A DNA stretch of 64,000 nt. Origin: an uncultured Acidobacteriota bacterium (GTDB lineage Bacteria; Acidobacteriota; Thermoanaerobaculia; Multivoradales; UBA5704). The DNA lies in the NCBI GenBank assembly GCA_963755825.1, contig CAVWLA010000001.1:258808-322807 (forward strand), written 5' to 3'. The translations under genes and the position numbers were made by a program. Positions 30,626 to 57,482 of the stretch are shown piece after piece. Position 1 is the first letter of the stretch; every line of letters begins with the position of its first letter. Under the pieces are notes generated by a model. It ran no database searches and was not told the DNA's origin. It saw nothing but the letters and a program-made list of their open reading frames with translations.

Positions 30626-30637
30626 CTTTGACTACTC

Positions 30638-45623: not shown

Positions 45624-45725
45624 GATACGGCGCGCGAACCGCCCTGCCTACAGCAGGACCGGTGCCACCTTCGCCATCGCGAAGGGGCTTGACGGCGATG
45701 CTAACCTGACCTCGCGTCCTCGGCG

Positions 45726-46016
45726 ATGCCCGATGCGAGGACGGACCCGGAGGAGATCATGGCGACCTGTGCCCACACCGATCAGATCCGCGACGTCACC
45801 CCCTCGACCGACCGCGGTTGCGAGGACTGCCTGAAGACCGGCGACAGCTGGGTCCACCTGCGGCTGTGCATGACCTGCGGCCACGTCGGCTGCTGCGACT
45901 CGTCGAAGAACCGGCACGCGACGAAGCACTTCCACCACACCCAGCACGCCATCATGCGCTCCTTCGAGCCGGGCGAGGACTGGAGCTGGTGCTACATCGA
46001 CCAGGTCATGCTGTGA
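45726..46016 (+). CDS. UBP-type zinc-finger (zf-UBP) domain protein
   Basis: CEDCLKTGDSWVHLRLCMTCGHVGCCDSSKNRHATKHFHHTQHAI matches the zf-UBP (PF02148) Cys/His pattern. An alternative start is at MATCAHTD (45759). Confidence 0.6.
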   Translation: MPDARTDPEEIMATCAHTDQIRDVTPSTDRGCEDCLKTGDSWVHLRLCMTCGHVGCCDSSKNRHATKHFHHTQHAIMRSFEPGEDWSWCYIDQVML

Positions 46017-47476
46017 CCGGCCCGGAGCGGCCGCGGCTGGAGGAGCTGCGCGGCATCGAGGTGCTCGCCGACCTCGCCCCCGAGGAGCTCGCCTGGGTGG
46101 CCGAGCACTCGGAGGTGGTGACGGTGGCGCCGGGCGAGGTCGTGCTCGCCGAGGGGTCGCCCGCCGACACCCTCTTCATGCTCCTCTCCGGGGTGATCGA
46201 GGGGCGGCGGGAGAAGGGGCCGGCGGACGGGCGGTTCTTCTCCGTGCACGCCGGCGAGGTCTCCGGCATGCTGCCGTTCTCGCGCATGAAGGAGTTCACG
46301 GTGACCGGCCGCGCCCTGGTCGAGAGCCGCGTCGCGCGCCTCGCGGCGGCGCTCTTCCCGCAGCTCCTGGCGCGCATTCCCCAGCTCGAGCCGCGGCTCG
46401 TCGGGGTGCTCACCGACCGGGTGCGCGAGACCACCCGCAACGACGAGCAGCGCGAGAAGCTGATGGCGCTGGGCAAGCTCTCGGCGGGGCTCGCCCACGA
46501 GCTCAACAACCCCGCCGCCGCGGCGCGCCGTGCCGCCGCCGACCTGCGCGAGCGCCTGGGCTCGATGCGGCGGGCCGCCGCCGAGCTCGCCGCGCGGGGC
46601 CTGACCAACGAGGACCGCGCGGTGCTCTGCGAGCTCGCCGACGCCGTCGAGACGGCGCGCGCGGCCGGCGCCGCGCAGGCGTCGAAGACGCCGCCCTCGC
46701 CGATGGAGGAGGCCGACCGCGAGAGCGCCATCGGCGACTGGCTTGACGAGCGCGGCATTGCCGACGGTTGGCGCCTCGCCGCGACCTTCGCCGGCGCCGG
46801 CCTCTCTCCTGAAGACCTGGCGCGCCTGGCGGCGCGGCTGCCGGAACCGGCATGGGCGGCGGCGCTGGGCTGGCTCGAGGCCGGCCTCGCCGCCTCCTCG
46901 CTGGTCGCCGACATCGAGAGCACCTCGCGCCGCATCTCGGAGCTGGTCGGCGCGGTCAAGAGCTACTCCCACATGGACCGCGGCTCCGGCAAGGTGGCGA
47001 TCGAGCTGGCCTGCGAGATCGAGAGCACCATCACCATGCTCTCCTACAAGATCCGCAAGAAGGGAATCGCCCTCACCCGCGACCACGACCCGGCGATGCC
47101 GGAGATCCAGGCCTACGCCGGCGAGCTCAACCAGGTGTGGACGAACCTCCTCGACAACGCCATCGACGCGGTGCACGAGGGCGGCCGGGTGACGATCACG
47201 ACGCGGCGGGTCAACCACTGGGCGGTGGTCGAGATCCGCGACGACGGGCCGGGCATCCCGCCAGACGTCCAGGGGCGCATCTGGGATCCCTTCTTCACCA
47301 CCAAGCCGCTGGGCCAGGGGACCGGCCTGGGGCTCGACATCGCGCGCCGCATCGTCGTCCAGCGCCACGGCGGCGAGCTGGCCCTCGAGTCGGTCCCCGG
47401 CGACACCCGCTTCATCGTCCGCCTGCCGCTCGCCGACGGCGCGGACGCCGCCGCTGCCCCTGAGCCGCATTCCTGA
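46013..47476 (+). CDS. Sensor histidine kinase with N-terminal cyclic-nucleotide-binding (cNMP/CAP effector) domain
   Basis: GTG start at 46013-46015 overlapping the upstream stop (GTGA). The cNMP-binding domain spans VLADLAPEELAWV...GEVVLAEGSPADTLFMLLSGVIEG and carries no TM helices. HisKA H-box LAHELNNPAAA. HATPase_c N/G1/G2 boxes (NLLDNAIDA, DDGPGIP, GTGLGL). Confidence 0.8.
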   Translation: MTGPERPRLEELRGIEVLADLAPEELAWVAEHSEVVTVAPGEVVLAEGSPADTLFMLLSGVIEGRREKGPADGRFFSVHAGEVSGMLPFSRMKEFTVTGRALVESRVARLAAALFPQLLARIPQLEPRLVGVLTDRVRETTRNDEQREKLMALGKLSAGLAHELNNPAAAARRAAADLRERLGSMRRAAAELAARGLTNEDRAVLCELADAVETARAAGAAQASKTPPSPMEEADRESAIGDWLDERGIADGWRLAATFAGAGLSPEDLARLAARLPEPAWAAALGWLEAGLAASSLVADIESTSRRISELVGAVKSYSHMDRGSGKVAIELACEIESTITMLSYKIRKKGIALTRDHDPAMPEIQAYAGELNQVWTNLLDNAIDAVHEGGRVTITTRRVNHWAVVEIRDDGPGIPPDVQGRIWDPFFTTKPLGQGTGLGLDIARRIVVQRHGGELALESVPGDTRFIVRLPLADGADAAAAPEPHS

Positions 47477-47514
47477 CGCACCACCCGAGACCCCGAGAGC
47501 GCGCGAACCGACCG

Positions 47515-49392
47515 ATGACCGAGAACAACGAGACCACCGAGACGAACGATCCCAGCCAGCCGGCGCCGCCGGCGAAGGCGCTCAAGCCGGCGCCGAAGCC
47601 GGTCCTCTTCACCGTCGACGACGACCTCGAGGTGCTGCGCGCCGTCGAGCGCGACCTCCGCCGCCGTTACGGCGCCGATTACCGGGTGCTCCGCGCCAGC
47701 TCCGGCGCCTCGGCGCTCGAGGCGCTCCGCGAGCTCAAAGCGCGCGACGGCGCCCTTGCCCTCCTCCTCGTCGACCAGCGGATGCCGCAGATGAACGGCG
47801 TCGAGCTGCTCGAGCAGGCGATCCCGCTCTTCCCCGACGCCAAGCGCGTGCTCTTGACCGCCTACGCCGACACCGACGCCGCCATCCAGGCGATCAACTC
47901 GGCGCGCCTCGACTACTACCTCCTCAAGCCCTGGGACCCGCCGGAGGAGAATCTCTATCCGGCGCTGGACGACCTGCTCGCTGACTGGAAGGCGGGCTAC
48001 AGGCCGCCGTTCGAAGGGGTCCGGGTGGTGGGGCACCGGTGGTCGCCGCGATCGTTCGAGGTCCGCGACTTCCTCGCCCGCCACCAGGTGCCGTATCGGT
48101 GGCTCGACGTCGAGACCGACACGGCGGCGAAGCGGCTGGCGGAGGAGACGGTGGGGGTGGCGGCGGCGGATGCTGCGGAATCGCTCGATCCGGCCGAGGC
48201 GGTGACGGCCGTGACCGCGGCGACCGCCGCGGCCGCCGGAGTCACCCCGAAACCCTGCCTGCCGCTGGTCTTCTTTCCCGACGGCTCGCATCTGACCGAG
48301 CCGACGCGCGCCGAGCTCGCCGCCCGCCTCGGTCTGCGCACGCAGGCGGAGAAGCCGTTCTACGACCTGGTGATCGTCGGCGGCGGCCCGGCGGGGCTGG
48401 CGGCCGCGGTCTATGGCGCCTCGGAAGGGCTGCGGACGCTGATGGTCGAGGGCGACGCGCCGGGCGGGCAGGCGGGGACGAGCTCGCGGATCGAGAACTA
48501 TCTGGGCTTCCCGTCCGGTCTTTCGGGCGCCGACCTGACGCGGCGCGCGGTCGCCCAGGCGGCGCGCTTCGGGGTCGAGATCCTGTCGCCGCAGGAGGCG
48601 ACGGGCCTGAGGTTGGAGGACGCCTATCGCATCGTCACGCTGGGCGACGGCACGGCGGTGAGCTGCCACGCGCTCCTGGTGGCGACGGGGGTGTCCTATC
48701 GCAAGCTCGACATGCCGGGCGTCGAGCGGCTGACCGGCGCCGGGATCTACTACGGCGCCGCGATGACGGAGGCGATGTCCTGCCGCAACGAGGAGGTCTT
48801 CGTCGTCGGCGGCGCCAACTCGGCGGGCCAGGCGGCGATGCACCTCTCGAAGTACGCCAAGAAGGTGACCATGCTGGTGCGCGGCGCGTCGCTCGCGGCG
48901 GGGATGTCGCAGTACCTGGTCGATCAGATCTGCGGCACCCCGAACATCGAGGTGCGGTTCGGCGCCCAGGTCGCCGAAGCGCACGGCGAGGAGAGCCTGG
49001 AGGAGCTGACGATCGAGGTGCGGGAGGTCGGAAAGGAGACCTTGCCGGCGAACTCGCTGTTCATCCTGATCGGGGCGATGCCGCGGACGGGGTGGCTGGA
49101 GGGGGTGGTGGCGCGGGACGACCGGGGGTTCATCCTGTCGGGGCCGGATCTGGTGAGCGATGGAAATGGGAATGGGGCGGGTGGGGCGGGAGCGGATGGG
49201 GGGGAGGGGAAGGCCGGGCGGCGGCCTCGCGGGTGGACGCTGGACCGCGACCCTTTTTTGCTCGAGACCTCGGTGCCCGGGGTGTTCGTCGCCGGGGACG
49301 TGCGGCATGGGTCGGTCAAGCGGGTGGCCTCTGGGGTGGGGGAGGGGGCGATCGCGGTTTCGTTCGTGCACCAGTATCTGGCGCGGTTGTAG
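47515..49392 (+). CDS. Response-regulator receiver domain fused to thioredoxin-reductase-like FAD/NAD(P) flavoprotein lacking the CxxC redox disulfide
   Basis: REC domain (FTVDDDLEVLRAV...LLLVDQRMPQMNG...LLKPWD). Central thioredoxin/glutaredoxin-like fold. TrxB-like GxGxxG motifs (LVIVGGGPAGLAAAVYG and VFVVGGANSAGQAAMHL). The TrxB CATC position reads TEAM, leaving a single Cys nearby. Confidence 0.8.
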   Translation: MTENNETTETNDPSQPAPPAKALKPAPKPVLFTVDDDLEVLRAVERDLRRRYGADYRVLRASSGASALEALRELKARDGALALLLVDQRMPQMNGVELLEQAIPLFPDAKRVLLTAYADTDAAIQAINSARLDYYLLKPWDPPEENLYPALDDLLADWKAGYRPPFEGVRVVGHRWSPRSFEVRDFLARHQVPYRWLDVETDTAAKRLAEETVGVAAADAAESLDPAEAVTAVTAATAAAAGVTPKPCLPLVFFPDGSHLTEPTRAELAARLGLRTQAEKPFYDLVIVGGGPAGLAAAVYGASEGLRTLMVEGDAPGGQAGTSSRIENYLGFPSGLSGADLTRRAVAQAARFGVEILSPQEATGLRLEDAYRIVTLGDGTAVSCHALLVATGVSYRKLDMPGVERLTGAGIYYGAAMTEAMSCRNEEVFVVGGANSAGQAAMHLSKYAKKVTMLVRGASLAAGMSQYLVDQICGTPNIEVRFGAQVAEAHGEESLEELTIEVREVGKETLPANSLFILIGAMPRTGWLEGVVARDDRGFILSGPDLVSDGNGNGAGGAGADGGEGKAGRRPRGWTLDRDPFLLETSVPGVFVAGDVRHGSVKRVASGVGEGAIAVSFVHQYLARL

Positions 49393-49424
49393 AGGCTGGG
49401 CGAGCCGGCGGGTCGATTCGCGTC

Positions 49425-49740
49425 GCGCGCGATGGGGAAGGCGCGGCGGCGATGCGGTCGCGGCGGCCGCAACGGGGAAGCGGCGGCGCGAGTGGGGAAG
49501 GATCGGCTGCAATGAGGAAGGATTCGATTCTTCCTCGAAGGATTGGATTCTTCCTCGAAGCGGCCGCCGTGATGAGGAAGAATCCGGTCCTTCCTCAAAT
49601 CGGCCGTCGCAATGAGGAAGAATCCGATCCTTCCTCTCTGCAGCCGCCGCGATGGCGAAGAATCCGATCCTTCGCCATCGCGGCGGTCTCAGAGAGGAAG
49701 AGATCGATCCTTCGGCTCTCCGGCCGTCGAAATGTACTTT
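49425..49740. repeat. Tandem array of ~8 imperfect 20/40 bp hairpin repeats (consensus cggccgNcgNNatgaggaagaatccgatccttcctc)
   Basis: Units read directly: ...aatgaggaaggattcgattcttcctcgaag / gattggattcttcctcgaag / cggccgccgtgatgaggaagaatccggtccttcctcaaat / cggccgtcgcaatgaggaagaatccgatccttcctctctg / cagccgccgcgatggcgaagaatccgatccttcgccatcg / cggcggtctcagagaggaagagatcgatccttcggctctc. The stem gaggaag/cttcctc is replaced by ggcgaag/cttcgcc in one unit, a compensatory change. The array is preceded by 20 bp tggggaag units. Confidence 0.75.
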
Positions 49741-49809
49741 CTGGGCGGATCAGTGCGGGCCGCCGGCCTTCGCGAAAGACGATCTGCCGACCGTATCGTA
49801 GGTCGTGCC

Positions 49810-49832
49810 CCAGGGGGCCCTTCGCCCCCTGG
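49810..49832. terminator. Palindromic hairpin ccagggggc-ccttc-gccccctgg downstream of convergent genes
   Basis: Perfect 9 bp stem, 5 nt loop. Confidence 0.35.
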
Positions 49833-49986
49833 ACCCCCGCTCGGGCGGGCGCCGGGAGGGTTTCGCGACGGCAGTGGGTGTGCGGCACCGAAGAAGGGTG
49901 AGGCCGCCGCAGAGTCCCGTGCCACGGCTGGGTGGGGCGAGGAAGGGTGTAGCGCGAGGGCGCCGGGTTCTTGGGCGGGAGCTGTC

Positions 49987-52900
49987 CTAATCCGCCGGGT
50001 CGGAGAATTCGGCGAGGTGTTCCTCGACGAGGTCGGCGCGGTCGATGCTTTCCCAGGCAGACCTCGCCTGCGCTACGAGCTCGCGCCGCGAGGCAGGGTC
50101 TGGTGCGAGACGGGCAAGGCGGACGAGGGACCAACCGATCGAATAGGGCTCCGGGATACGGCGGTAGAGCGCGAGGGCCGCGTTGAATTGAGAGCTCGCG
50201 GCCGCGCGGTCGCCAGCCGAAAGGTCGATATCGCCGAGGCTTCTTATGCAAGTGGCCTCGCCGAGCACACCGCCGACGCGCCGGTAAAGAGGCAGAGCCT
50301 TCTGAAAGAGGTTGCGGGCGGTGTCGTGGTCGGCGTGTTCGCGAGCAATGTCGCCGAGGCTACAGAAGCAATCGGCCTCGCCGCGCGCGTCGCCGAGGCG
50401 CCGGTAGAGAGGCAGAGCCTGCTGAATAAGGTTACGGGCGGTGGCATGGTCGGAGCGGTCGAGAGCGATGTCGCCGAGGCTCTGGACACAATGGGCCTCG
50501 CCGATCATGCTGCCGATGCGCCGGTACAGAGGCAGAGCCTCCTGATAGAGGTCGCGAGCGGTGTCATGGTCGGAAAGTTGAAAAGCGATGTCGCCGAGCT
50601 TCCGGATGCAATTGGGCTCGCCGCGCCCGGTGCCGAACTGCCGGTAGAGAGGCAGAGCCTGCTGGTACAAATCGCGGGCGGTGCCGTGGTCAGAACGGTC
50701 GAGAGCGATGTCGCCGAGGCCCTGGATGCAATTGGCTTCGCCGAGCACCTTACCGACGCGCCGATAGAGAGGCAGGGCCTGCTGGTATAGGTCGCGGGCG
50801 ATGCCGTGGTCAGAACGGTAATAGGCGAGATGGGCGAACTGCGCAAGACACTCTGCTTCGATCTGTGGGTCGCCGAGCCGTGCCGCTGCCTTCAGGGTCT
50901 GTTCTTGTAGGGCCGGAGACGCTAGAAATCCGGTAAAGCTCGCGAATTTGGCCAGGGCTCTGCAAGCGGCCAGCGCCCGTTGCATGCCCTCGAGCTCGAG
51001 ACCGAGACCGAGACCGAAAATCGCCGTCGCTTCGAGGTTCCCCACCTCCGGGGCGAGACGTTCGATGGCGCCGGTGCCACCCTCGGTGCCAACCAGGTTG
51101 CCGAGCATTGCGAGCTCGAGGTAGTGGGCGACGGCGCGCTGCTGATCTTCCACCGCCGGCGGGTGACGACGCCGAACGTGCTCGCGCACGGGAGCCAGCG
51201 TGCGCAGCCTTCTATCCGAATCGAACGCCAGGCCGACTCGGCGCAGCACCGCGGCCGCCTCCTCGGCATCCTCGCTCAGAACTGCCGCGAGATCCTGGTG
51301 GGCGATGCCGTCTGGGAGTACGGCGTGGAGCGCCAGTAGGGAACGCGCTGCGGGGGTCATCCGTTTGCTGCCGATGGAGAGCTCAAGCGAGACGGCGAGG
51401 TTGGTGAGGCGCTGGTCGCCGTCGCTGGCGCGGAGCATCTCTGTGCGCTGGTCTTGCCAGCGGCGCGTGAGCCCTACGAGATCGGGCTCGGATTCGGCCT
51501 GGTAGGCGAGGAGCGTGACGGCGAGGGCGAGGCGGTCGACGGCTTCGATCAGAGGTACGAGCTGAGGATCGGAGCCGAGACGCGCTCCGGTCACGGCAAG
51601 GAAGGCGCTCCGCGCGGCCTCGGGGCTGAGCGGGCCGGCGTGAATCGCTTCGCGCCAGGGAATGCCGAAGGGCCGCTGCTCGCCGCGGATCGAGGCGGCC
51701 AGGGCCAGCCCCGAGATGCTGCAGAGATCGGCGATGAACGCCTCGGTTGCGGCCGTCTCCGCTTCCCACGGAGTTTCCAGGTTGTCCAGTACGAGCGCGA
51801 TGGGCGCCCGCTCCAGCTCAGCGAAGACTGCCGGCTCGGTGAGCGGCCCGGGCTCGACGCCGAGGGAGCGCGCGATCTCGGCGGCGAGCGCCTCGCGGCC
51901 TTTGGCGCCGTCGCAGCGGACGAAGTAGCGGCGAGGTCCGAACCGCGCGAAGGTCGGTGGGGCGTGGAGCGCTCGGAGGGTGATGGTCGACTTTCCCGCG
52001 CCGGCAGGGCCGAGGATCGGCGTCGGGGATGGCGGATCGGCGCAGAGGGAGTCGACGAGGTCGCGGATCTCGTCTTCGCGGCCGAAGCAGCGCGGGACTG
52101 TGGGGAGCCGAGGAGCACTGGGTGGGGCGCTCGGTGGCGGAGAGCTGAGTCTTCCGGCCGCCGGGCTCGCGGCGGGTACGAGCGAACGAAAGAAGGGCGC
52201 GAGGTCGCCGTAGTCAGCGCCGTAGGCGAGCGCAAAGATTCGATCCTCCCGGGGGTGCTGAGCTTGAACGCTCGCCAGCTCACTGTCGCGGCAGAGCCGG
52301 AAGTGCCGAGCCTCTCCCTCCGAGAGTACCTGGCGCGACCAGCGGAGGAGAGCCCCGAAGTTGGGATCGGCGAGGCCGTTGCCGCAGCCGATGAAGAGCA
52401 GTGTCTTCATGGTGCGCAGTGCGCGCAGCACATTCTGCGCGTGGGCATCGCCGATGACCTGCTCATAGCTGCGGATGCCCAGGACGACCGATTCCGGCTC
52501 GTCCCAGTAGCCGTGCAAGTGGAGGATCGCCGGCTCGTCGCGGAGCGCTCTCTCGATTTTGAGGCCCTGGCGCCAGGTCACCGCCGGTCTGCGCGTCACC
52601 TCTTCGAGTAGGCCGTCGTAGTTGGTTGTCGCCAGGGGGATTCCGAGATCACGCAGGGCGTCGAGCACGGAACGATCCTCGGCGCGAAGCGCTCCGACCG
52701 TCTCTTTCAGCCAGAGGCTGTACTCGGACCCGGCGGGCGCGCCGAGCTTGGCGGCGATTTTCTCTGCCGCGGAGAGAAGGTCGTCCATGTCGCCCGAACC
52801 GACGTCGGCGAGCACGCGATCTCTCCAGCCAGCGGGCAAGGATGCGCCGACGAACTGCACGCACCACTCCACGCCGACCTTAAGAAGCCCCGTCCAGGAA

Positions 52901-53013
52901 GAAGCGGGGGCGTTGCGGGTCGCGCCGACCGAGACTCCTGTCCCGACGATCGCGAGGACTCGCCCGGCGGCGACCTCCGTACGGAGATCCTGAAGTAGCA
53001 GCTCTTGAGTCAT
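49987..53013 (-). CDS. SIR2-like domain / STAND (NB-ARC-like) NTPase / TPR-repeat protein, antiviral STAND (Avs5-like, SIR2-STAND) candidate defense protein
   Basis: 1008 aa. The N-terminal ~270 aa SIR2_2/DUF4020-type domain has LAIVGTGVSV, TTNYDGLLE and LHLHGYW. The central P-loop NTPase has Walker A ILGPAGAGKSTI, Walker B LVLDNLE and a helical winged-helix region. The C-terminal ~350 aa hold at least 7 near-identical TPR units (RSDHGIARDLYQQALPLYRRVGKVLGEANCIQGLGDIALD). GC is lower than neighbouring genes. Confidence 0.8.
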   Translation of the reverse strand: MTQELLLQDLRTEVAAGRVLAIVGTGVSVGATRNAPASSWTGLLKVGVEWCVQFVGASLPAGWRDRVLADVGSGDMDDLLSAAEKIAAKLGAPAGSEYSLWLKETVGALRAEDRSVLDALRDLGIPLATTNYDGLLEEVTRRPAVTWRQGLKIERALRDEPAILHLHGYWDEPESVVLGIRSYEQVIGDAHAQNVLRALRTMKTLLFIGCGNGLADPNFGALLRWSRQVLSEGEARHFRLCRDSELASVQAQHPREDRIFALAYGADYGDLAPFFRSLVPAASPAAGRLSSPPPSAPPSAPRLPTVPRCFGREDEIRDLVDSLCADPPSPTPILGPAGAGKSTITLRALHAPPTFARFGPRRYFVRCDGAKGREALAAEIARSLGVEPGPLTEPAVFAELERAPIALVLDNLETPWEAETAATEAFIADLCSISGLALAASIRGEQRPFGIPWREAIHAGPLSPEAARSAFLAVTGARLGSDPQLVPLIEAVDRLALAVTLLAYQAESEPDLVGLTRRWQDQRTEMLRASDGDQRLTNLAVSLELSIGSKRMTPAARSLLALHAVLPDGIAHQDLAAVLSEDAEEAAAVLRRVGLAFDSDRRLRTLAPVREHVRRRHPPAVEDQQRAVAHYLELAMLGNLVGTEGGTGAIERLAPEVGNLEATAIFGLGLGLELEGMQRALAACRALAKFASFTGFLASPALQEQTLKAAARLGDPQIEAECLAQFAHLAYYRSDHGIARDLYQQALPLYRRVGKVLGEANCIQGLGDIALDRSDHGTARDLYQQALPLYRQFGTGRGEPNCIRKLGDIAFQLSDHDTARDLYQEALPLYRRIGSMIGEAHCVQSLGDIALDRSDHATARNLIQQALPLYRRLGDARGEADCFCSLGDIAREHADHDTARNLFQKALPLYRRVGGVLGEATCIRSLGDIDLSAGDRAAASSQFNAALALYRRIPEPYSIGWSLVRLARLAPDPASRRELVAQARSAWESIDRADLVEEHLAEFSDPAD
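50232..51090. repeat. ~120 bp tandem DNA repeats (x7) encoding the TPR sensor units of the STAND protein
   Basis: Plus-strand units ccggtagagaggcagagcctgctg...gatgtcgccgaggc... recur every ~120 bp at about 80% identity. Confidence 0.7.
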
Positions 53014-53167
53014 TCCGTTTTGCCTGCGTGAATGCTATCTCAGACGGCGAGGCGCCACGTGGGTGCGGAGCGAGAGCTGCGAACAGGCGGCGCGGCAGAG
53101 AGGCTGGCAAATTCTTTCGGGGGCGCCAAAGGCTTGCGGCGGTCTCGTCCCGCGAAGTGATTCAAAT

Positions 53168-53278
53168 CGTCATCCTGAGCGGAGCGAAGGATCTGGGCGG
53201 GGGGAGCTCTAAGCACAAGACGGTCAATGACTTGGAGCGCTCCCTTCCCCCGGATCCTTCGCTTCGCTCAGGATGACG
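53168..53278. repeat. Long hairpin (26 bp arms cgtcatcctgagcggagcgaaggatc / gatccttcgcttcgctcaggatgacg, ~59 nt loop with inner pairing)
   Basis: Arms at 53168-53193 and 53253-53278 are reverse complements with 1 mismatch. A third copy of the right arm lies at 53722-53746. Confidence 0.7.
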
Positions 53279-53395
53279 TACGAAGTTTCCGTGAGCCATC
53301 GCGGCGAAGTATTTGGCGGAGCCAGCAAGAATTTGCAGGCTCTGAGGACGAGGCCGATCGCCAGAATCGGGGATGAGTCGCGGCCCGCGTCCCAG

Positions 53396-53675
53396 CACGG
53401 GCATGAATGCCCGTGCTATGAGGGGCGCCGGATAAATCCGGCTTCGCGCAGTCCGTGGGCTCGTCTCGATGCCGCGGACGAGAGGTAGCGATGAGCCACA
53501 ATCTGGACGGATTGCGGACAACGCGCCCTCCTCAACATCGCCGGCGTCCTCTGCGGCTCCGGATCGGCTGAGGCGATCGAAATCCGTCTGCCGACCGCCA
53601 ACGCGCTGACCGTCCCAGTGCGCGAAGCCGGATTCATCCGGCGCCCCTCAATAGCACGGGCATTCATGCCCGTGC
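53396..53675. mobile_element. MITE-like element: ~58 bp terminal inverted repeats flanking ~165 bp, itself flanked by 25 bp direct repeats (53253-53278 and 53722-53746)
   Basis: Left TIR gcacgggcatgaatgcccgtgctatgaggggcgccggataaatccggcttcgcgcag (53396-53452). Right TIR cagtgcgcgaagccggattcatccggcgcccctcaatagcacgggcattcatgcccgtgc (53616-53675). The right TIR is the reverse complement of the left with about 4 mismatches, and each TIR contains two internal hairpins. No transposase ORF is present inside. Confidence 0.45.
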
Positions 53676-53815
53676 GGGGGTCCGGTGGCCTCGACTCGAG
53701 CCCGCGAATGCGGCGTGGCCAGATCCTTCGCTTCGCTCAGGATGACACTGCGCGGGAGCGTCAAGGAACCATGGCGCCGAAGAAATTGGCAGCGCCGCAC
53801 GAAACTCGCAAGCGC

Positions 53816-54775
53816 TCAGCTCACCGGCGCGATCCGCAGCACGATCTTGCCTCGCGTGTGCCCCGTCTCGCTGGCGGCGTGGGCTTGGGCGACGTCTTCT
53901 AAGAGATAGGTCTTTTCGATGGTGGGGCGGAGGAGGTGGGTTCGGGCGAGCTCGGCTAAGAGGTCGAGGTCGCGGGCGTTGGGTTGGGTCTTGATCCAGC
54001 GGGCTCGGCGGGCTTCGGGGGAGAGGCGGGCGGCGAAGGCGGTGCGCAGGCGGGCGAGGGCGATGCGGGGGCCGATCTCGGTGGTCACGTAGGTGCCTCC
54101 GTCGAGGAGGGCGCGGTCGCAGAGGGTGAAGTCGGAGGCTCCGGCGGCGTCGAAGATGACGTGGAAGGCCTCGTCTCCGGCGGTGAAGTCTTCGGTCGTG
54201 TAGTCGATGGTGCGCTCGGCGCCGAGGCCGCGGAGGAACTGCTGGCTGGTGGGGCCGGCGATGGCGGTGACGTGGGCTCCGATGGCGGCGGCGATCTGGA
54301 CGGCGAGGTGACCGACTCCGCCGGCGGCACCGAGGATGGCGAGGCGCTGGCCGCGGGCGAGGGCGGCGAGGTCGCGCAGGGACTGGAGCGCGGTGAGGCC
54401 CGCCAGGGGGAGCGCCGCGGCCTCTTCGTAGGTGAGCTCCTCGGGCTTGTGGGCGACGGCGGTGGCGAGAGCGTACTCGGCGTAGCCGCCGGCATGGCCG
54501 TCGAGCATGGCGAAGACGGGGTCTCCCGGCTCGAAGCCCTCGACCTCGGGGCCGACCGCCTCGACGTCCCCCGAGACGTCGAAGCCGAGGATGTGGGGGA
54601 AGCGCAGGGGGTGGACGAAGCGGAGGCTGCCCCGGCGGATCTTCCAGTCGATCGGGTTGACGCTCGCGGCGCGGACGCGGATGAGGACCTGGCCGGCTCC
54701 CGCGGTGGGGCGGCTGGCGCCGCCGATGATCAGCCGCTCGGGGCCGCCGTAGCGGGTGAGGAGGGCCGCCCTCAT
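53816..54775 (-). CDS. qor: NADPH:quinone oxidoreductase / zinc-independent MDR-family oxidoreductase
   Basis: 319 aa with a GroES-like N-domain and Rossmann motif ILGAAGGVGHLAVQIA. Confidence 0.8.
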   Translation of the reverse strand: MRAALLTRYGGPERLIIGGASRPTAGAGQVLIRVRAASVNPIDWKIRRGSLRFVHPLRFPHILGFDVSGDVEAVGPEVEGFEPGDPVFAMLDGHAGGYAEYALATAVAHKPEELTYEEAAALPLAGLTALQSLRDLAALARGQRLAILGAAGGVGHLAVQIAAAIGAHVTAIAGPTSQQFLRGLGAERTIDYTTEDFTAGDEAFHVIFDAAGASDFTLCDRALLDGGTYVTTEIGPRIALARLRTAFAARLSPEARRARWIKTQPNARDLDLLAELARTHLLRPTIEKTYLLEDVAQAHAASETGHTRGKIVLRIAPVS

Positions 54776-56120: not shown

Positions 56121-57482
56121 ATGATCGACTCCCTCCCCCAGCAGAAGGCGCTCCCCCACAGCGAGGAGTCGGAGCGCGCCGTGCTCGGCGGCATCCTGCT
56201 CGACCCGCGGGTGCTGCCGACGATCTCCGGCCGCCTGCGCCCCGACGACTTCTACCTCGAGCGCCACCAGACGCTCTACGACGCCATGCTCGCCCTCCAG
56301 GAGCAGCAGGTGGAGATCGACCTGCGCACCCTGCAGGCGAAGCTCGAGCAGCAGGGGACCTTCGACTCGATCGGCGGCGTCGCCTACCTCTCGCAGCTCG
56401 ACCTCGACCTCCCCGACCTCGGCCGCATCGATGCCTACGTCGAGATCATCAAGGAGCGCTCGGTCCGCCGCCGGCTCATCCAGGTGTCGGGCAAGATCAT
56501 CCGCGACTGCCTCGACGGCGGCCTCGAGGCGCAGGCGGCGCTCGCCCACGCCGAGCAGGCGATCCTCGGCCTCGGCGAGGAGGCGGTGCAGCGCGGCTTC
56601 GTGCAGATCGGCCAGGTCTTCCACTCGACCCTGGAGGATCTCGAGGAGCGGCCGGGCTCGACGCTGATCGGCGTGCCGACCGGCTTCATCGACTTCAACC
56701 GCCTCTCGCATGGGTTGAACCGCGGCAACCTCATCATCATCGCCGGCCGCCCCGGCATGGGGAAGACCAGCTTCGCCTTGAACATCGCCCAGCACGTCGC
56801 CATCCGCGAGAAGCGGGGCGTCGGGATGTTCTCGCTCGAGATGAGCCAGCAGGAGCTCGCGCTGCGCATACTCTGCTCGGAGGCCGACGTGCCGTTCTCG
56901 CGGCTGCGCTCCGGAGCGCTCTCCCAGAAGCAGTGGAGCCGCGTCATCCAGACCGTCCGCGGCACCAGCGACGCGCCGTTCTACATCGACGACTCGGCGA
57001 ACCCCACCCTCCTCGAGGTGGCCTCGAAGTCGCGCCGCCTGAAGGCCGAGCGCGGCCTGGAGCTGGTCATCCTCGACTACCTGCAGCTCATGCAGGCGGG
57101 CGGCCGTTACGAGAACCGCAACCTGGAGATCGCCGCCATCAGCCGCGGCCTGAAGCAGCTCGCCAAGGAGCTCGACCTGCCGGTGATCGCCCTCTCGCAG
57201 CTCTCCCGCCAGCCGGAGCGGCGGGGGAGCGACCACCGCCCGCAGCTCGCCGACCTGCGCGAGAGCGGCTCGATCGAGCAGGACGCCGACATGGTCGCCT
57301 TCGTCTACCGCGACGAGGTCTACAACCCCGACGACGCCGACAACAAGGGCCTGGCGGAGCTCATCGTCGCCAAGCACAGGAACGGCGAGACCGGCACCAT
57401 CGAGCTCTACTTCAACGGCGAGACGACCACCTTCCGCAACCTTGCCCGCGATGGCGCGACCGAGCCCGACGCCCCCTTCTGA
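56121..57482 (+). CDS. dnaB: Replicative DNA helicase DnaB
   Basis: 453 aa with Walker A IIIAGRPGMGKTSFAL, Walker B LVILDYLQLM and an N-terminal DnaB primase-interaction domain. Confidence 0.9.
   Translation: MIDSLPQQKALPHSEESERAVLGGILLDPRVLPTISGRLRPDDFYLERHQTLYDAMLALQEQQVEIDLRTLQAKLEQQGTFDSIGGVAYLSQLDLDLPDLGRIDAYVEIIKERSVRRRLIQVSGKIIRDCLDGGLEAQAALAHAEQAILGLGEEAVQRGFVQIGQVFHSTLEDLEERPGSTLIGVPTGFIDFNRLSHGLNRGNLIIIAGRPGMGKTSFALNIAQHVAIREKRGVGMFSLEMSQQELALRILCSEADVPFSRLRSGALSQKQWSRVIQTVRGTSDAPFYIDDSANPTLLEVASKSRRLKAERGLELVILDYLQLMQAGGRYENRNLEIAAISRGLKQLAKELDLPVIALSQLSRQPERRGSDHRPQLADLRESGSIEQDADMVAFVYRDEVYNPDDADNKGLAELIVAKHRNGETGTIELYFNGETTTFRNLARDGATEPDAPF

What the first reader, a model, noticed from the sequence alone, without database searches (positions are those of the whole stretch)
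49987..53013. SIR2-STAND NTPase-TPR protein (Avs5-like antiviral STAND) embedded between repeat arrays
A single 1008 aa gene combines three parts. The N-terminus is a SIR2_2/DUF4020-type domain (GTGVS, TTNYD, HLHG), the family used as NAD+-depleting effectors in Thoeris, DSR and Avs5 systems. The centre is a P-loop STAND NTPase with Walker A GPAGAGKST and Walker B LVLDNLE. The C-terminus is an array of near-identical TPR units. Effector-NTPase-repeat sensor is the architecture of antiviral STAND (Avs) pattern-recognition proteins. The gene has lower GC than its neighbours and sits between two housekeeping-type genes (a quinone reductase and a thioredoxin-reductase-like gene). It is bracketed by a hairpin tandem-repeat array on its 3' side and hairpin plus MITE-like elements on its 5' side, so it looks like a small defense islet. 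In this lineage such a protein is likely uncharacterised, and the very recently expanded TPR sensor suggests ongoing diversification of target recognition.
Basis: partly seen in the sequence, partly recalled or inferred. Interest (0 to 1): 0.75.

Follow-up and report, generated by a model that had tools for sequence, protein, structure and literature searches.

The report
Bacterial NLR-like SIR2 sensor gene
One 1,008-residue bacterial protein joins a predicted NAD-destroying SIR2 enzyme to an NLR-type nucleotide switch and a repeat "sensor"; it sits on 4.4 kb of foreign-looking DNA wedged between two housekeeping genes and belongs to a large, untested family that is built like the known Avs5 antiphage proteins but is not one of them.

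Summary
ORF 49987-53013 (-) encodes 1,008 aa with all quoted motifs. It has a SIR2_2 domain, a P-loop STAND NTPase and a TPR_12 array.

AlphaFold models are confident (pLDDT about 91). They show a 7-stranded SIR2 without a zinc site, an Apaf-1/ZAR1/NRC-like NBD-HD-WHD module and an alpha-solenoid.

Family-level "Avs5" is not supported. No PADLOC Avs model hits this protein or 29 relatives. A family profile does not list the solved Avs5 chains. Structural alignments give 10-14% identity. Avs5's sensor is short, not a regular array.

By sequence, the closest solved relative of the SIR2 domain is human FAM118B (profile E 2e-33).

The family is large (about 2,100 clusters at 50% identity), solitary and patchily distributed. 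It is modular: the same NOD-TPR chassis carries TIR or kinase instead of SIR2.

The "islet" claim is supported. In relatives the two flanking genes are 15 nt apart, or hold unrelated cargo. The gene's GC3 is 0.79 against 0.92-0.98 in neighbours.

"Near-identical, very recently expanded" repeats is overstated.

Most likely it is a single-protein NLR-like abortive-infection sensor that depletes NAD+: a new member of a known kind, not tested experimentally.

The parts
49393..53813 (.). Inserted islet of 4,421 nt between the stop codons of two convergent housekeeping genes. It holds the hairpin array, the SIR2-STAND-TPR gene and the MITE-like elements.
   Evidence: blastn: L085 2-4001 matches window 45283-49392, and L085 4015-4554 matches window 53814-54353, with 15 nt between the two stop codons in L085. 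L169 shares the same breakpoints but carries 3.8 kb of unrelated cargo. GC3 of the gene is 0.785 against 0.92-0.98 in neighbours.
49987..53013 (-). SIR2-STAND-TPR coding sequence, 1,008 aa.
   Evidence: ORF list. Homologues align from residues 1-7 to about 1005. Full-length AF2 model has pLDDT 90.9 and pTM 0.70.
52168..53013 (-). SIR2_2 (SIRim-type, FAM118-like) effector domain, aa 1-282. It has a 7-stranded Rossmann-like fold and no CxxC zinc site.
52930..52950 (-). NAD-binding glycine-rich loop IVGTGVS, aa 22-28.
   Evidence: G24 and G26 are invariant or nearly invariant in 30-111 homologues. The loop aligns to FAM118B VIGTGIS. Coordinates.
52615..52623 (-). Catalytic motif N131-Y132-D133 within TTNYD.
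   Evidence: N131, Y132 and D133 are invariant in 111 sequences. N131 aligns with FAM118B N163 and BcThsA N112 (N163A abolishes NAD processing, PMC12700824).
52513..52515 (-). Catalytic His167 within HLHG.
   Evidence: Invariant. Aligns with FAM118B H206 and BcThsA H152.
52117..52167 (-). Disordered Pro/Ser-rich linker, aa 283-299.
   Evidence: pLDDT below 50 in both models.
51154..52116 (-). STAND NTPase (NOD: NBD-HD-WHD), aa 300-620, AP-ATPase/NB-ARC-like.
51988..52011 (-). Walker A GPAGAGKS, aa 335-342 (K341).
   Evidence: G335, G338, G340 and K341 are invariant. Coordinates.
51775..51798 (-). Walker B ALVLDNLE, aa 406-413 (D410, E413).
   Evidence: D410 is invariant; N411 and E413 are nearly invariant.
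50005..51153 (-). Alpha-solenoid sensor, aa 621-1003, with a helical N-cap, a TPR array and a conserved C-cap.
50149..50868 (-). Regular 40-aa (two-helix) TPR_12-type units, aa 716-955, with consensus GEAxCxxxLGDIAxxxSDHxTARxLxQxALPLYRRxGxxx.
   Evidence: TRF finds period 120 nt, 4.9 copies, 78% matches at 50226-50819. Unit alignment and identities. Family consensus and per-position entropy. dN/dS is 1.26 at 14 variable positions and 0.35 at 26 framework positions.
49427..49729 (.). Tandem array of 20/40-nt hairpin units (core GAGGAAGAATCCGATCCTTCCTC) in the 3' intergenic region.
   Evidence: TRF. The motif occurs only here in the window. RNA fold -183.7 kcal/mol, z = -9.5. No Rfam family reaches threshold.
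53168..53278 (.). 111-bp palindromic element with 43-nt arms, 86% complementary, carrying GTCATCCTGAGCG(G/A)AGCGAAGGATC.
   Evidence: the repeat finder I1. Motif search.
53391..53679 (.). MITE-like element of about 289 bp with terminal inverted repeats of about 60 nt, 97% complementary.
   Evidence: the repeat finder I2 and I3. The motifs are unique to this site in the window.
53719..53746 (.). Third copy of the 28-nt GATCCTTCGCTTCGCTCAGGATGAC-type repeat. It is inverted relative to 53169-53196, and together the two copies bracket 578 bp.
   Evidence: the repeat finder D1 and I4.

Best explanation
The gene encodes a self-contained, NLR-like (antiviral-STAND-type) intracellular sensor.

Proposed mechanism:
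1. In the resting state the C-terminal TPR solenoid and the ADP-bound NB-ARC-like NOD keep the protein monomeric and the N-terminal SIR2 domain inactive.
2. A foreign protein, most plausibly a phage protein, binds the variable face of the TPR array and releases the NOD.
3. The NOD exchanges nucleotide and oligomerises.
4. The clustered SIR2 domains then hydrolyse NAD+ through N131 and H167. This depletes the cell of NAD+ and aborts the infection through growth arrest or death.

The gene arrived by horizontal transfer into a variable site between two convergent housekeeping genes of a probable Thermoanaerobaculia (Acidobacteriota) genome.

Shown here: the domain architecture and folds, intact catalytic and Walker residues, family size and modularity, the insertion, and faster evolution of the sensor.

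Inferred by analogy with Avs5, DSR2, ThsA and other Avs proteins: the trigger, the oligomerisation, the NADase activity and the abortive-infection outcome.
For: Architecture and folds:
- Pfam SIR2_2 and TPR_12 score above their cut-offs.
- AF2 models have pLDDT 90.8 and 90.9.
- The SIR2 fold matches NADase defence sirtuins and FAM118B.
- The NOD matches Apaf-1, ZAR1, NRC2 and MalT over NBD-HD-WHD.
- The solenoid matches ligand-binding TPR sensors: MalT domain III, NprR, Rap and PH0952.

Active-site integrity:
- G24, G26, N131, D133, H165, H167, G335, G338, G340, K341 and D410 are invariant or nearly invariant in 30-111 homologues.
- N131 and H167 align with FAM118B N163 and H206 and with ThsA N112 and H152.
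- There is no zinc CxxC site, as in immune-type sirtuins (Bonhomme et al., 10.1101/2024.09.18.613514).

Modularity typical of immune NLR-like proteins:
- The same NOD-TPR chassis (about 50% identity) carries TIR_2 in 5 of 10 sampled proteins, a protein kinase in 2 of 10, and unassigned N-termini in 2 of 10.
- The same SIR2 subtype is fused to NACHT-HEAT, FGE-sulfatase, WD40 and helicase modules.

Mobility:
- The segment is 4.4 kb, absent from L085 and replaced by other cargo in L169.
- GC3 is 0.785 against 0.92-0.98 in neighbours.
- Distribution across phyla is patchy.
- The gene is solitary, in eight different contexts.

Sensor dynamics:
- In the orthologue pair P0068/P0074, SIR2+NOD is mostly 90-98% identical, while the TPR region is 76-84% identical and differs by a 38-aa gap, about one 40-aa unit.
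- dN in the TPR array is about three times that of the NOD at equal dS.
- Unit number varies across the family.
- dN/dS is 1.26 at variable positions and 0.35 at framework positions.

Precedent:
- Avs5 (SIR2-STAND) defends by trigger-induced filamentation and NAD+ hydrolysis (PMC11897194, PMC12931631).
- TPR-like Avs sensors bind phage proteins directly (PMC12803255).
Against: - There is no experimental datum for any member of the family.
- No PADLOC model of a known or candidate system covers the protein beyond its SIR2 or TPR parts.
- None of the nine neighbourhoods examined contains a canonical defence gene. They hold only VapBC-like pairs, one nSTAND-type ATPase and one patch of mobile-element genes.
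- The family is absent from the phage collection, and no plasmid carries a full-length relative: three plasmids match the SIR2 region only, in other architectures.
- The closest solved relative of the SIR2 domain, FAM118B, is only a weak NAD processor with a signalling or scaffold role (PMC12700824).
- Some relatives on the same chassis carry a protein kinase, an effector also common in non-immune STAND regulators.
- Averaged dN/dS over the TPR array is below 1 (0.45), so positive selection is not demonstrated.
Confidence: 0.6

Rival explanations
1. The chassis is the same, but the output is not bulk NAD+ depletion. On activation the FAM118-like SIR2 domain would make an NAD-derived signal, ADP-ribosylate a target, or act mainly as a filament scaffold, as proposed for human FAM118B. 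The outcome would be signalling, not metabolic suicide.
For: The SIR2 domain is far closer in sequence to FAM118B (E 1.8e-33) than to the strong NADases ThsA (7.5e-12), DSR2 (1.4e-9) or KomC (3e-9). It shares with FAM118B the C-terminal YG.DY.DL..FF..L motif. FAM118B alone has minimal NADase activity and forms filaments (PMC12700824). SIR2 and TIR swap on this chassis, and bacterial TIRs often make signals.
Against: No partner or effector gene that could read a signal is conserved next to the gene in eight different contexts. Every characterised bacterial SIR2_2 defence protein acts as an NADase (PMC11897194, PMC12931631). The catalytic Asn and His are the same as in those NADases.
Confidence: 0.13
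2. The protein is a conflict or programmed-cell-death sensor whose trigger is not a phage. Candidate triggers are a toxin or effector from competing bacteria, another mobile element, or a non-self or kin cue. This would resemble fungal NLR heteroincompatibility and the "conflict systems of multicellular prokaryotes".
For: The tripartite NLR layout with swappable death-type effectors is the layout described for such systems (PMC8195603; the bNACHT preprint 10.1101/2022.07.19.500537). The family is concentrated in soil Acidobacteriota, Gemmatimonadota, Myxococcota, Planctomycetota and Actinomycetota. There is no defence-island context. Two paralogues occur in one Holophagales MAG.
Against: Where the activating ligand of a bacterial STAND protein with a TPR-like sensor has been identified, it was a phage protein (PMC12803255, PMC12931631). 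Nothing in the locus points to secretion or cell-cell contact.
Confidence: 0.15
3. The protein is a housekeeping STAND signal-transduction regulator of the MalT, AfsR or PknK type. A metabolite or peptide would bind the TPR domain, and the SIR2 domain would modify cellular proteins or tune NAD metabolism.
Against: There is no DNA-binding or other output domain. The SIR2 is of the zinc-less SIR2_2 class, which lacks the acyl-lysine-binding module (10.1101/2024.09.18.613514). The gene is on a horizontally acquired, dispensable insert that is absent from close relatives. Patchy phyletic distribution and effector swapping are unlike housekeeping regulators.
Confidence: 0.08
4. The gene is a decaying passenger that is no longer functional.
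For: Some relatives in public genomes are frameshifted (L016, L017, L043, L066). No sigma-70-like promoter was found upstream.
Against: The 3-kb ORF is uninterrupted and every invariant family residue is retained. It aligns end to end with homologues. The promoter scan covers only one promoter type.
Confidence: 0.03

Closest known systems
Avs5 / AVAST type 5 (SIR2-STAND; EfAvs5, PaAvs5; PDB 9jap, 9nc9)
   Different: They are different sequence families. No PADLOC Avs hit occurs in 30 members. Avs5 chains are not listed by the family profile down to E 0.12. Structural alignments give 10-14% identity. Here the SIR2 is FAM118-like, the NOD is closer to Apaf-1, ZAR1, NRC and MalT, and the sensor is a regular TPR array of about 380 aa. 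Avs5 has a short region with one TPR and one Sel1 motif (PMC11897194, PMC12931631). Hosts are soil Acidobacteriota and relatives, not Enterobacteria or Pseudomonas.
FAM118B/FAM118A (SIRal/SIRanc) and eukaryotic 'clade A' SIRim proteins
   Different: Vertebrate FAM118 proteins are stand-alone SIR2 proteins. They form head-to-tail filaments spontaneously and have weak activity (PMC12700824). Identity is only 22-26%. The FAM118 kinship belongs to the SIR2 module subtype as a whole, not to this chassis: a FAM118B fragment scores a median 43.6 bits on this family and 41.3 bits on other architectures.
DSR2 / Dsr1 and Thoeris ThsA, KomC (bacterial SIR2 NADase defence effectors)
   Different: DSR proteins have no NTPase switch. 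ThsA uses SLOG or Macro domains and needs ThsB. KomC works with KomB. No such partners or domains are found here. PADLOC hits to ThsA, LmuA and Dsr1 cover only aa 110-250.
AP-ATPase / NB-ARC STAND NTPases (Apaf-1, CED-4, plant ZAR1/NRC) and the STAND-TPR proteins MalT and PH0952
   Different: The effector and biological context differ. Pfam NB-ARC does not reach threshold on the window protein and is weak in 14 of 30 relatives.
TIR-NOD-TPR and kinase-NOD-TPR proteins on the same chassis (P0221, P0237, P0250, P0198 and others)
   Same: The NOD is about 47-55% identical, and the same 40-aa TPR_12 array is present.
   Different: The N-terminal effector is exchanged. These proteins are the nearest evolutionary relatives of the switch-plus-sensor part and are equally uncharacterised.
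Computationally catalogued prokaryotic STAND 'conflict' / Avs clades (Kaur et al. 2021; Kibby et al. preprint; Gao laboratory 2026)
   Same: The general class is the same: a SIR2, TIR or nuclease effector, a STAND NTPase and a TPR, HEAT, WD40 or FGE sensor (PMC8195603; 10.1101/2022.07.19.500537; PMC12803255).
   Different: I found no named or tested family that corresponds to this one. The Gao sensor clustering used only sensors of at least 400 aa (PMC12803255), and this one is about 380 aa.

Membership tests
Avs5 (AVAST type 5, SIR2-STAND) | N-terminal SIR2 NADase domain with the catalytic Asn (EfAvs5 N141) | tested here: met
   Pfam SIR2_2 E 5e-17. N131 and H167 are invariant and align to validated catalytic residues of FAM118B and ThsA.
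Avs5 (AVAST type 5, SIR2-STAND) | Central STAND NTPase with functional Walker A and Walker B motifs | tested here: met
Avs5 (AVAST type 5, SIR2-STAND) | Sequence membership: recognised by Avs5 family models, or detectably homologous to EfAvs5/PaAvs5 beyond generic SIR2 and P-loop similarity | tested here: not met
   No PADLOC Avs model hits the protein at E<=1, nor any of the 30 members at E<=0.01. The TPR-free family profile lists FAM118B, ThsA, DSR2, KomC, ZAR1 and NRC but not 9jap or 9nc9 among the 60 hits down to E 0.12. Structural alignments give 10-14% identity.
Avs5 (AVAST type 5, SIR2-STAND) | Unusually short C-terminal sensor (one TPR plus one Sel1 motif in PaAvs5-1) | tested here: not met
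   Here aa 621-1003 form a long solenoid with about seven regular 40-aa units. Avs5 description from PMC11897194 and PMC12931631.
Avs5 (AVAST type 5, SIR2-STAND) | Phage-triggered filamentation, NAD+ hydrolysis and phage resistance | not testable with these tools
   Requires expression and biochemistry.
Antiviral STAND / bacterial NLR-like proteins in the broad sense | Tripartite effector-NOD-repeat sensor in one polypeptide | tested here: met
Antiviral STAND / bacterial NLR-like proteins in the broad sense | Combinatorial exchange of effector and sensor modules among close relatives | tested here: met
   TIR_2 and Pkinase occur on the same NOD-TPR chassis. The same SIR2 subtype occurs on NACHT-HEAT, FGE-sulfatase, WD40 and helicase chassis.
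Antiviral STAND / bacterial NLR-like proteins in the broad sense | Statistical association with known defence genes (defence islands) | tested here: inconclusive
   Nine neighbourhoods were read through Pfam annotation and show no canonical defence genes. The sample is too small, and these phyla are poorly covered by defence catalogues.
Antiviral STAND / bacterial NLR-like proteins in the broad sense | Horizontal mobility and presence/absence polymorphism | tested here: met
   Three-state junction. GC3 deviation. Patchy taxonomy.
SIR2_2 / SIRim sirtuins, FAM118-like subtype | Rossmann-like sheet of at least 7 strands, no Zn-Cys4 module, catalytic Asn and His | tested here: met
   Seven strands in the model. 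No CxxC. N131 and H167. Criteria from 10.1101/2024.09.18.613514.
SIR2_2 / SIRim sirtuins, FAM118-like subtype | Closer to FAM118B than to ThsA, DSR, KomC or Avs5 sirtuins | tested here: met
   119 bits against 47.6 bits or less in the profile search. E 2e-16 against 0.006 with the single sequence. Foldseek rank 1. No proper phylogeny was built.
AP-ATPase / NB-ARC clade of STAND NTPases | NBD-HD-WHD architecture most similar to Apaf-1, CED-4 and plant R proteins | tested here: met
AP-ATPase / NB-ARC clade of STAND NTPases | Pfam NB-ARC (PF00931) above its gathering threshold | tested here: not met
   No NB-ARC hit on the window protein. Weak hits (best E 2.3e-5) in 14 of 30 relatives; nSTAND1 in 7 of 30 and NACHT in 6 of 30. 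Clade assignment therefore rests on fold.
Thoeris (ThsA/ThsB) and DSR1/DSR2 | ThsA SLOG or Macro domain plus a ThsB TIR partner; or the DSR MID/CTD without an NTPase | tested here: not met
   PADLOC ThsA and Dsr1 hits cover the SIR2 core only. There is no TIR gene in the neighbourhood. A STAND NTPase is present.

The most novel reading that the evidence does not exclude
This bacterial lineage combines a FAM118-like SIR2 module with an NB-ARC-type switch and TPR repeats. It could represent the prokaryotic stock from which eukaryotic "clade A" immune sirtuins descend. Clade A comprises human FAM118A/B (SIRal/SIRanc) and the fungal and animal SIRim-NB-ARC/NACHT-TPR NLRs. On this reading a complete SIR2-NLR, not just a SIR2 domain, was transferred to early eukaryotes.

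The abundant bacterial proteins would then be a tractable model for the ancestral, trigger-gated activity of FAM118. That activity might be something other than simple NAD+ depletion.

My evidence does not exclude this. FAM118B is by far the best solved match, and the tripartite layout is shared. The evidence also does not single out this chassis, because other bacterial architectures carry equally FAM118-like SIR2 modules. No phylogeny with eukaryotic sequences could be built, because AFDB was unavailable.
Probability: 0.15. Interest if true: 0.65.

Novelty: new member of a known kind. Interest (0 to 1): 0.4.

Why it matters
If the mechanism is right, this is a very large family of single-gene, NLR-like NAD+-depleting immune sensors: about 2,100 clusters at 50% identity and more than 5,000 detectable relatives. 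No member has been tested.

The family lives in soil phyla that current defence catalogues barely cover (Acidobacteriota, Gemmatimonadota and others). PADLOC 2.0.0 does not detect it.

It shows that the SIR2-STAND architecture of Avs5 has been assembled at least twice from unrelated SIR2, NOD and sensor lineages.

The family's SIR2 module is the closest bacterial-type relative, among solved structures, of human FAM118B. That gives a handle on how that poorly understood human immune sirtuin might once have been regulated.

The clean three-state junction between TrxR and QOR is a small, well-defined example of a variable integration site in an uncultured lineage.

None of this overturns current concepts. 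A specialist would find it expected and would not be surprised.

Tried and rejected
- Avs5 family membership: rejected.
- Thoeris or DSR membership: rejected. Only the SIR2 core matches, and there are no partner domains or genes.
- DUF4020: no Pfam hit.
- NCBIfam: only partial TPR-level hits far below the cut-offs (HaaT, AfsR), so it gives no naming.
- Transposon-like carriage of the gene: no terminal direct or inverted repeats are shared between the two flanks, only chance 10-12-mers. There is no tRNA nearby, and no integrase or transposase in the insert.
- The hairpin array as a known RNA or a CRISPR array: Rfam gives only sub-threshold miRNA-hairpin matches. The "spacers" between hairpins resemble each other, so it is a tandem repeat.
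- Intrinsic terminators or sigma-70 promoters in the flanks: none above chance.
- "Very recent" repeat expansion: rejected for this gene.
- A conserved partner gene: none in eight contexts. A PolB/RNase H-like gene follows the homologue in L083 and L168, but the two copies are 86% identical, so this is probably one lineage.
- A second paralogue in the window: none.
- Plasmid or phage carriage: essentially none.
- L169's alternative cargo as defence genes: no PADLOC hits; one BNR/Ycf48-like protein.
- Locating the source record through the exact protein P0001: nothing on record.
- AFDB50 fold search for eukaryotic two-domain relatives: the library was unavailable.

Full report
**1. The observation.**

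The six-frame ORF list shows an ATG-initiated ORF of 1,008 aa at 49987..53013 on the minus strand.
- IVGTGVS at aa 22-28
- TTNYD at 129-133
- HLHG at 165-168
- GPAGAGKST at 335-343
- LVLDNLE at 407-413

Pfam gives SIR2_2 (aa 128-249, E 5e-17, 62.7 bits against a cut-off of 24.5) and TPR_12 (five stretches, E 3e-31). AAA_16 reaches only 27 bits against a 32.6-bit cut-off. DUF4020 is not hit. NCBIfam adds only partial, far sub-threshold TPR matches.

- a receiver-domain/thioredoxin-reductase-like protein (47515-49392, +)
- a zinc-ADH-type quinone oxidoreductase (53816-54775, -)
- a cNMP-binding histidine kinase and a zf-UBP protein upstream
- DnaB at 56121-57482

The public gene call for this ORF (P0001, 942 aa) starts 66 residues late. 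It removes the NAD-binding glycine loop, whereas homologues align from residues 1-7.

**2. Structure.**

An AlphaFold2 model of aa 1-700, built on 111 sequences, has mean pLDDT 90.8. The full-length model, built on 89 sequences, has pLDDT 90.9 and pTM 0.70. The models show:
- aa 1-282: a seven-stranded Rossmann-like SIR2 domain. There are no CxxC pairs; cysteines occur only at 51, 210 and 241.
- aa 283-299: a disordered Pro/Ser linker.
- aa 300-620: an NBD-HD-WHD module.
- aa 621-1003: an alpha-solenoid with about seven two-helix units of 40 aa plus caps.

For the NOD, the same search gives ZAR1 17.2, Apaf-1 16.3, NRC2 15.6, CED-4 14.3, MalT 14.0, EfAvs5 13.1 and NLRP3 11.9.

The fold-level reading "SIR2 + STAND + TPR sensor" is therefore solid. 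The switch is of the AP-ATPase/NB-ARC-MalT kind, not NACHT.

**3. Catalytic competence.**

The following residues are invariant or nearly invariant across 30, 89 and 111 homologues:
- G24, G26, N131, Y132, D133, H165, H167 and G168 in the SIR2 domain
- G335, G338, G340, K341, D410 (with N411 and E413) and R447 in the NOD

In HMMER alignments to PDB chains, N131 pairs with the TTNFD Asn of FAM118B and H167 with the His of its HIHG motif. After subtracting the 20-residue tag of chain 9r0p_B, these are N163 and H206. Mutating these two residues abolishes NAD processing (PMC12700824). N131 and H167 also pair with BcThsA N112 and H152.

**4. Which family.**

A word-indexed search with aa 1-700 returned more than 435 hits. 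The top 120 all have E below 1e-195, 47-64% identity and lengths of 650-1,200 aa. Where named at all, they are called only "tetratricopeptide repeat protein" or "SIR2 family protein".

An exhaustive phmmer search of 1.84 billion cluster representatives found 5,477 proteins at E<=1e-3 and 2,111 at E<=1e-30.

In species-representative genomes, full-length relatives occur in Acidobacteriota (Thermoanaerobaculia, Holophagales, Blastocatellia, Terriglobia, Bryobacterales), Longimicrobium, "Deltaproteobacteria", Bacteroidota, Dechloromonas, Terrabacter and others. A further cluster member is from Thauera. The source genome itself is not among the representatives. DnaB's 90%-identity cluster contains a Thermoanaerobaculia MAG protein, so that is the probable lineage.

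**5. Is it Avs5?**

PADLOC-DB 2.0.0 gives no Avs hit at E<=1 for the window protein. The only hits are ThsA (1e-9), LmuA and Dsr1 through aa 110-250, plus generic TPR models. None of 30 family members hits an Avs model either.

A TPR-free profile of SIR2+NOD from 18 sequences was searched against all PDB sequences. It lists FAM118B (1.8e-33, 119 bits, whole domain), ThsA (7.5e-12), DSR2 (1.4e-9), KomC (3e-9), ZAR1 (1.3e-6) and NRC1-3. Neither EfAvs5 (9jap) nor PaAvs5 (9nc9) appears among the 60 hits listed, down to E 0.12.

[quoted passage not shown] In PaAvs5-1 this region holds one TPR and one Sel1 motif (PMC12931631).

The window protein therefore shares Avs5's architecture and, probably, its logic. 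All three of its modules, however, come from other sequence lineages. It works like an Avs5, but it is not a member of that family.

**6. Modularity.**

Among representative hits that match only the NOD (about 47-55% identity), five of ten carry TIR_2, two carry a Ser/Thr kinase and two carry unassigned short N-termini. All sit ahead of the same TPR_12 array.

Conversely, I scanned 41 genome-encoded proteins that match only the SIR2 part (18-36% overall identity to the first member in the alignment, with the same TTNYD..LLE and DPNF..LL.W motifs). They combine it with NACHT (8), FGE-sulfatase (9), HEAT, WD40, NB-ARC/nSTAND1 or DEAD-box helicase modules.

This two-way shuffling is the signature of NLR-like immune or conflict proteins as catalogued computationally (PMC8195603; 10.1101/2022.07.19.500537; PMC12803255). 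The SIR2-TIR exchange in particular argues for an NAD+-directed effector role.

**7. Genomic context.**

Eight homologue neighbourhoods with Pfam-annotated genes are mutually different, except for two related pairs. None holds canonical defence genes. They include NRPS genes, glycosyltransferases, transporters, VapBC-like pairs, one nSTAND-type ATPase and one patch of mobile-element genes. The gene is thus a solitary unit without a conserved partner, and a defence-island association is not demonstrated.

tblastn finds no relative in 50,697 phage records. In 72,556 plasmids it finds only three matches, all to the SIR2 domain alone.

**8. The islet.**

The gene's GC (0.677) is modestly below the window mean (0.714). 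Its GC3 is 0.785 against 0.92-0.98 for seven other genes of the window.

A metagenome scan with the TrxR-like neighbour found L085, which is 72-78% identical at protein level over Rieske-FAD, zf-UBP, HK and TrxR. blastn aligns L085 2-4001 to window 45283-49392 and L085 4015-4554 to window 53814-54353. In L085 the TrxR and QOR stop codons are 15 nt apart.

A second syntenic relative, L169 (GCA_037025365.1), has the same breakpoints: L169 438-3982 matches window 45779-49392, and L169 7783-8752 matches window 53815-54775. Between them lie 3.8 kb of unrelated cargo: a BNR/Ycf48-like protein and unknowns with no PADLOC hits.

The 4,421 nt at 49393-53813 are therefore a lineage-specific insertion at a variable junction. 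This supports "islet". It does not by itself support "defence".

The flanks hold:
- a hairpin tandem array at 49427-49729 (z = -9.5)
- a 111-bp palindrome at 53168-53278
- a MITE-like element at 53391-53679 with about 60-nt inverted termini
- a third 28-nt repeat copy at 53719-53746

All are unique to this locus within the window. They share no terminal repeats across the gene, match no Rfam family and sit near no tRNA. How the segment arrived is unknown.

**9. The sensor.**

The 40-aa units have the consensus GEAxCxxxLGDIAxxxSDHxTARxLxQxALPLYRRxGxxx. The four central units are 57-75% identical in protein and 74-81% in DNA, with dS 0.29-0.45. This is not "near-identical" and not "very recent".

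Across 337 units from 121 proteins the same framework is conserved. Variability concentrates at unit positions 7, 8, 15, 19-21, 24, 25, 31, 35, 36 and 38-40. Within-protein unit identity averages 0.61 across the family (0.58 for the window protein) against 0.56 between proteins, and the window protein ranks 49th of 71. The similarity of the units therefore mostly reflects a constrained scaffold.

There is still evidence for a fast-evolving sensor:
- Within the window gene, dN/dS is 1.26 at the 14 variable positions and 0.35 at the 26 framework positions. The sample is small.
- In a syntenic orthologue pair (L165/L166), SIR2+NOD are mostly 90-98% identical. The TPR region is 76-84% identical and differs by a 38-aa gap, about one 40-aa unit.
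- In the same pair, dN is 0.109 in the array and 0.036 in the NOD at equal dS, although array-wide dN/dS is only 0.45.
- The number of units found per protein varies from 0 to 8 across the family and correlates with protein length (r = 0.66).

**10. Interpretation.**

The best-supported reading (confidence about 0.6) is a single-polypeptide NLR-like sensor. Its TPR array binds a foreign protein, most likely from a phage. The NB-ARC-like NOD then exchanges nucleotide and oligomerises. The clustered SIR2 domains then hydrolyse NAD+ and cause abortive infection.

The architecture, the intact active sites, the modularity, the mobility and the sensor dynamics are shown here. The trigger, the oligomerisation, the chemistry and the phenotype are inferred from Avs5, DSR2, ThsA and TPR-sensor Avs proteins (PMC11897194, PMC12931631, PMC12803255).

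The rivals are:
- a non-depleting output, such as a signal, ADP-ribosylation or a scaffold, suggested by the FAM118B kinship
- a non-viral trigger (conflict or programmed cell death)
- a housekeeping STAND regulator
- a decaying passenger gene

**11. The FAM118 link.**

The SIR2 domain is much closer in sequence to human FAM118B than to any solved bacterial defence sirtuin. Bonhomme et al. report that the eukaryotic clade containing FAM118 also includes fungal and animal SIRim-NB-ARC/NACHT-TPR/ANK proteins, and that it probably derives from a bacterial sirtuin (10.1101/2024.09.18.613514).

A FAM118B fragment, however, scores equally on FAM118-like SIR2 modules in this chassis (median 43.6 bits) and in other bacterial architectures (median 41.3 bits). 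The kinship therefore belongs to the effector module, not specifically to this family. A proper test needs a phylogeny with eukaryotic sequences. The AFDB fold search that might have helped was unavailable.

**12. Verdict.**

The finding is real and largely well read. It is a new, untested member of a known kind: bacterial NLR-like/Avs-type sensors with an NADase effector. Its convergence on the Avs5 layout is instructive, its insertion site is cleanly documented, and it has a lead towards FAM118 evolution. Interest is moderate.

Noticed in passing
window 52816-53013 (aa 1-66 of the ORF): The public gene call for this protein (P0001, 942 aa) starts 66 residues downstream of the ATG at 53013. 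Homologues align from residues 1-7, and the omitted part holds the NAD-binding GxGxS loop, so the deposited annotation is probably truncated.
   Followed up: yes
window 49392/53814; L085 4001-4017; L169 3983-7782: The convergent TrxR|QOR junction exists in three states in related genomes: 15 nt (L085), 3.8 kb of unrelated cargo with a BNR/Ycf48-like gene (L169), and the 4.4-kb SIR2-STAND-TPR islet (window). It is a variable integration site with breakpoints at the two stop codons.
   Followed up: yes
window 53168-53746: The repeat architecture is nested. A 111-bp palindrome lies at 53168-53278. A MITE-like element with about 60-nt terminal inverted repeats lies at 53391-53679. Inverted 28-nt copies of GTCATCCTGAGCG.AGCGAAGGATC at 53169-53196 and 53719-53746 bracket 578 bp. 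One copy of the same motif occurs in relative L169 at position 253. Its genome-wide distribution was not examined.
   Followed up: partly
window 49427-49729: A 20/40-nt hairpin tandem array lies between the convergent TrxR-like and SIR2 genes. It folds very stably as RNA (z = -9.5) but matches no Rfam family and has no T-tract terminators. It may be a REP-like element. Its function is unknown.
   Followed up: partly
L083 11206-13611; L168 10877-13312: An approximately 800-aa protein with weak RNase_H_2, DNA_pol_B_exo1 and DNA_pol_B hits lies immediately downstream of the SIR2-STAND-TPR homologue in two contigs whose upstream contexts differ. In L168 it overlaps the homologue by 4 nt. The two PolB-like proteins are 86% identical, so this is probably one lineage. 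No such gene was found in the window or in the other family loci held (L001-L084, L165-L168).
   Followed up: partly
L165 8001-11432 and L166 8001-11318: Syntenic orthologues P0068 and P0074 differ by a 38-aa gap, about one 40-aa TPR unit, and show about threefold higher dN in the array than in the NOD. This pair is a natural example of sensor remodelling.
   Followed up: yes
P0221, P0237, P0239, P0249, P0250 (TIR); P0198, P0210 (kinase); P0041: Close relatives of the NOD-TPR chassis carry TIR_2 or a Ser/Thr kinase in place of SIR2. P0041 (860 aa) combines SIR2_2 with a TIR_2 hit and has no TPR.
   Followed up: partly
L003 and L006 (Holophagales MAG JANMTS01): Two full-length paralogues of the family occur in one genome, on different contigs. 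One is 961 aa and the other 821 aa.
   Followed up: no
L016, L017, L043, L066: Several relatives in public genomes are interrupted early in frame. These are possible pseudogenes or assembly errors.
   Followed up: no
window 29315-32266: This is the lowest-GC stretch of the window (0.59-0.66). It encodes, on the minus strand, a 436-aa protein with no Pfam hit and a 542-aa GH5 cellulase-like protein. It may be another foreign segment and is not defence-related by Pfam.
   Followed up: partly
window 17762-17848: A perfect-register 12-nt tandem repeat (CGGCGCTGGAAT, 7.2 copies, 85% matches) was not examined.
   Followed up: no
window 47515-49392: The "thioredoxin-reductase-like" neighbour is a fusion of a response-regulator receiver domain with a pyridine-nucleotide-disulphide oxidoreductase. 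It is conserved next to a cNMP-binding histidine kinase and a zf-UBP protein: the kinase is found in 67 of 80 metagenomic loci and the zf-UBP protein in 31 of 80. This looks like a widespread redox two-component module.
   Followed up: partly
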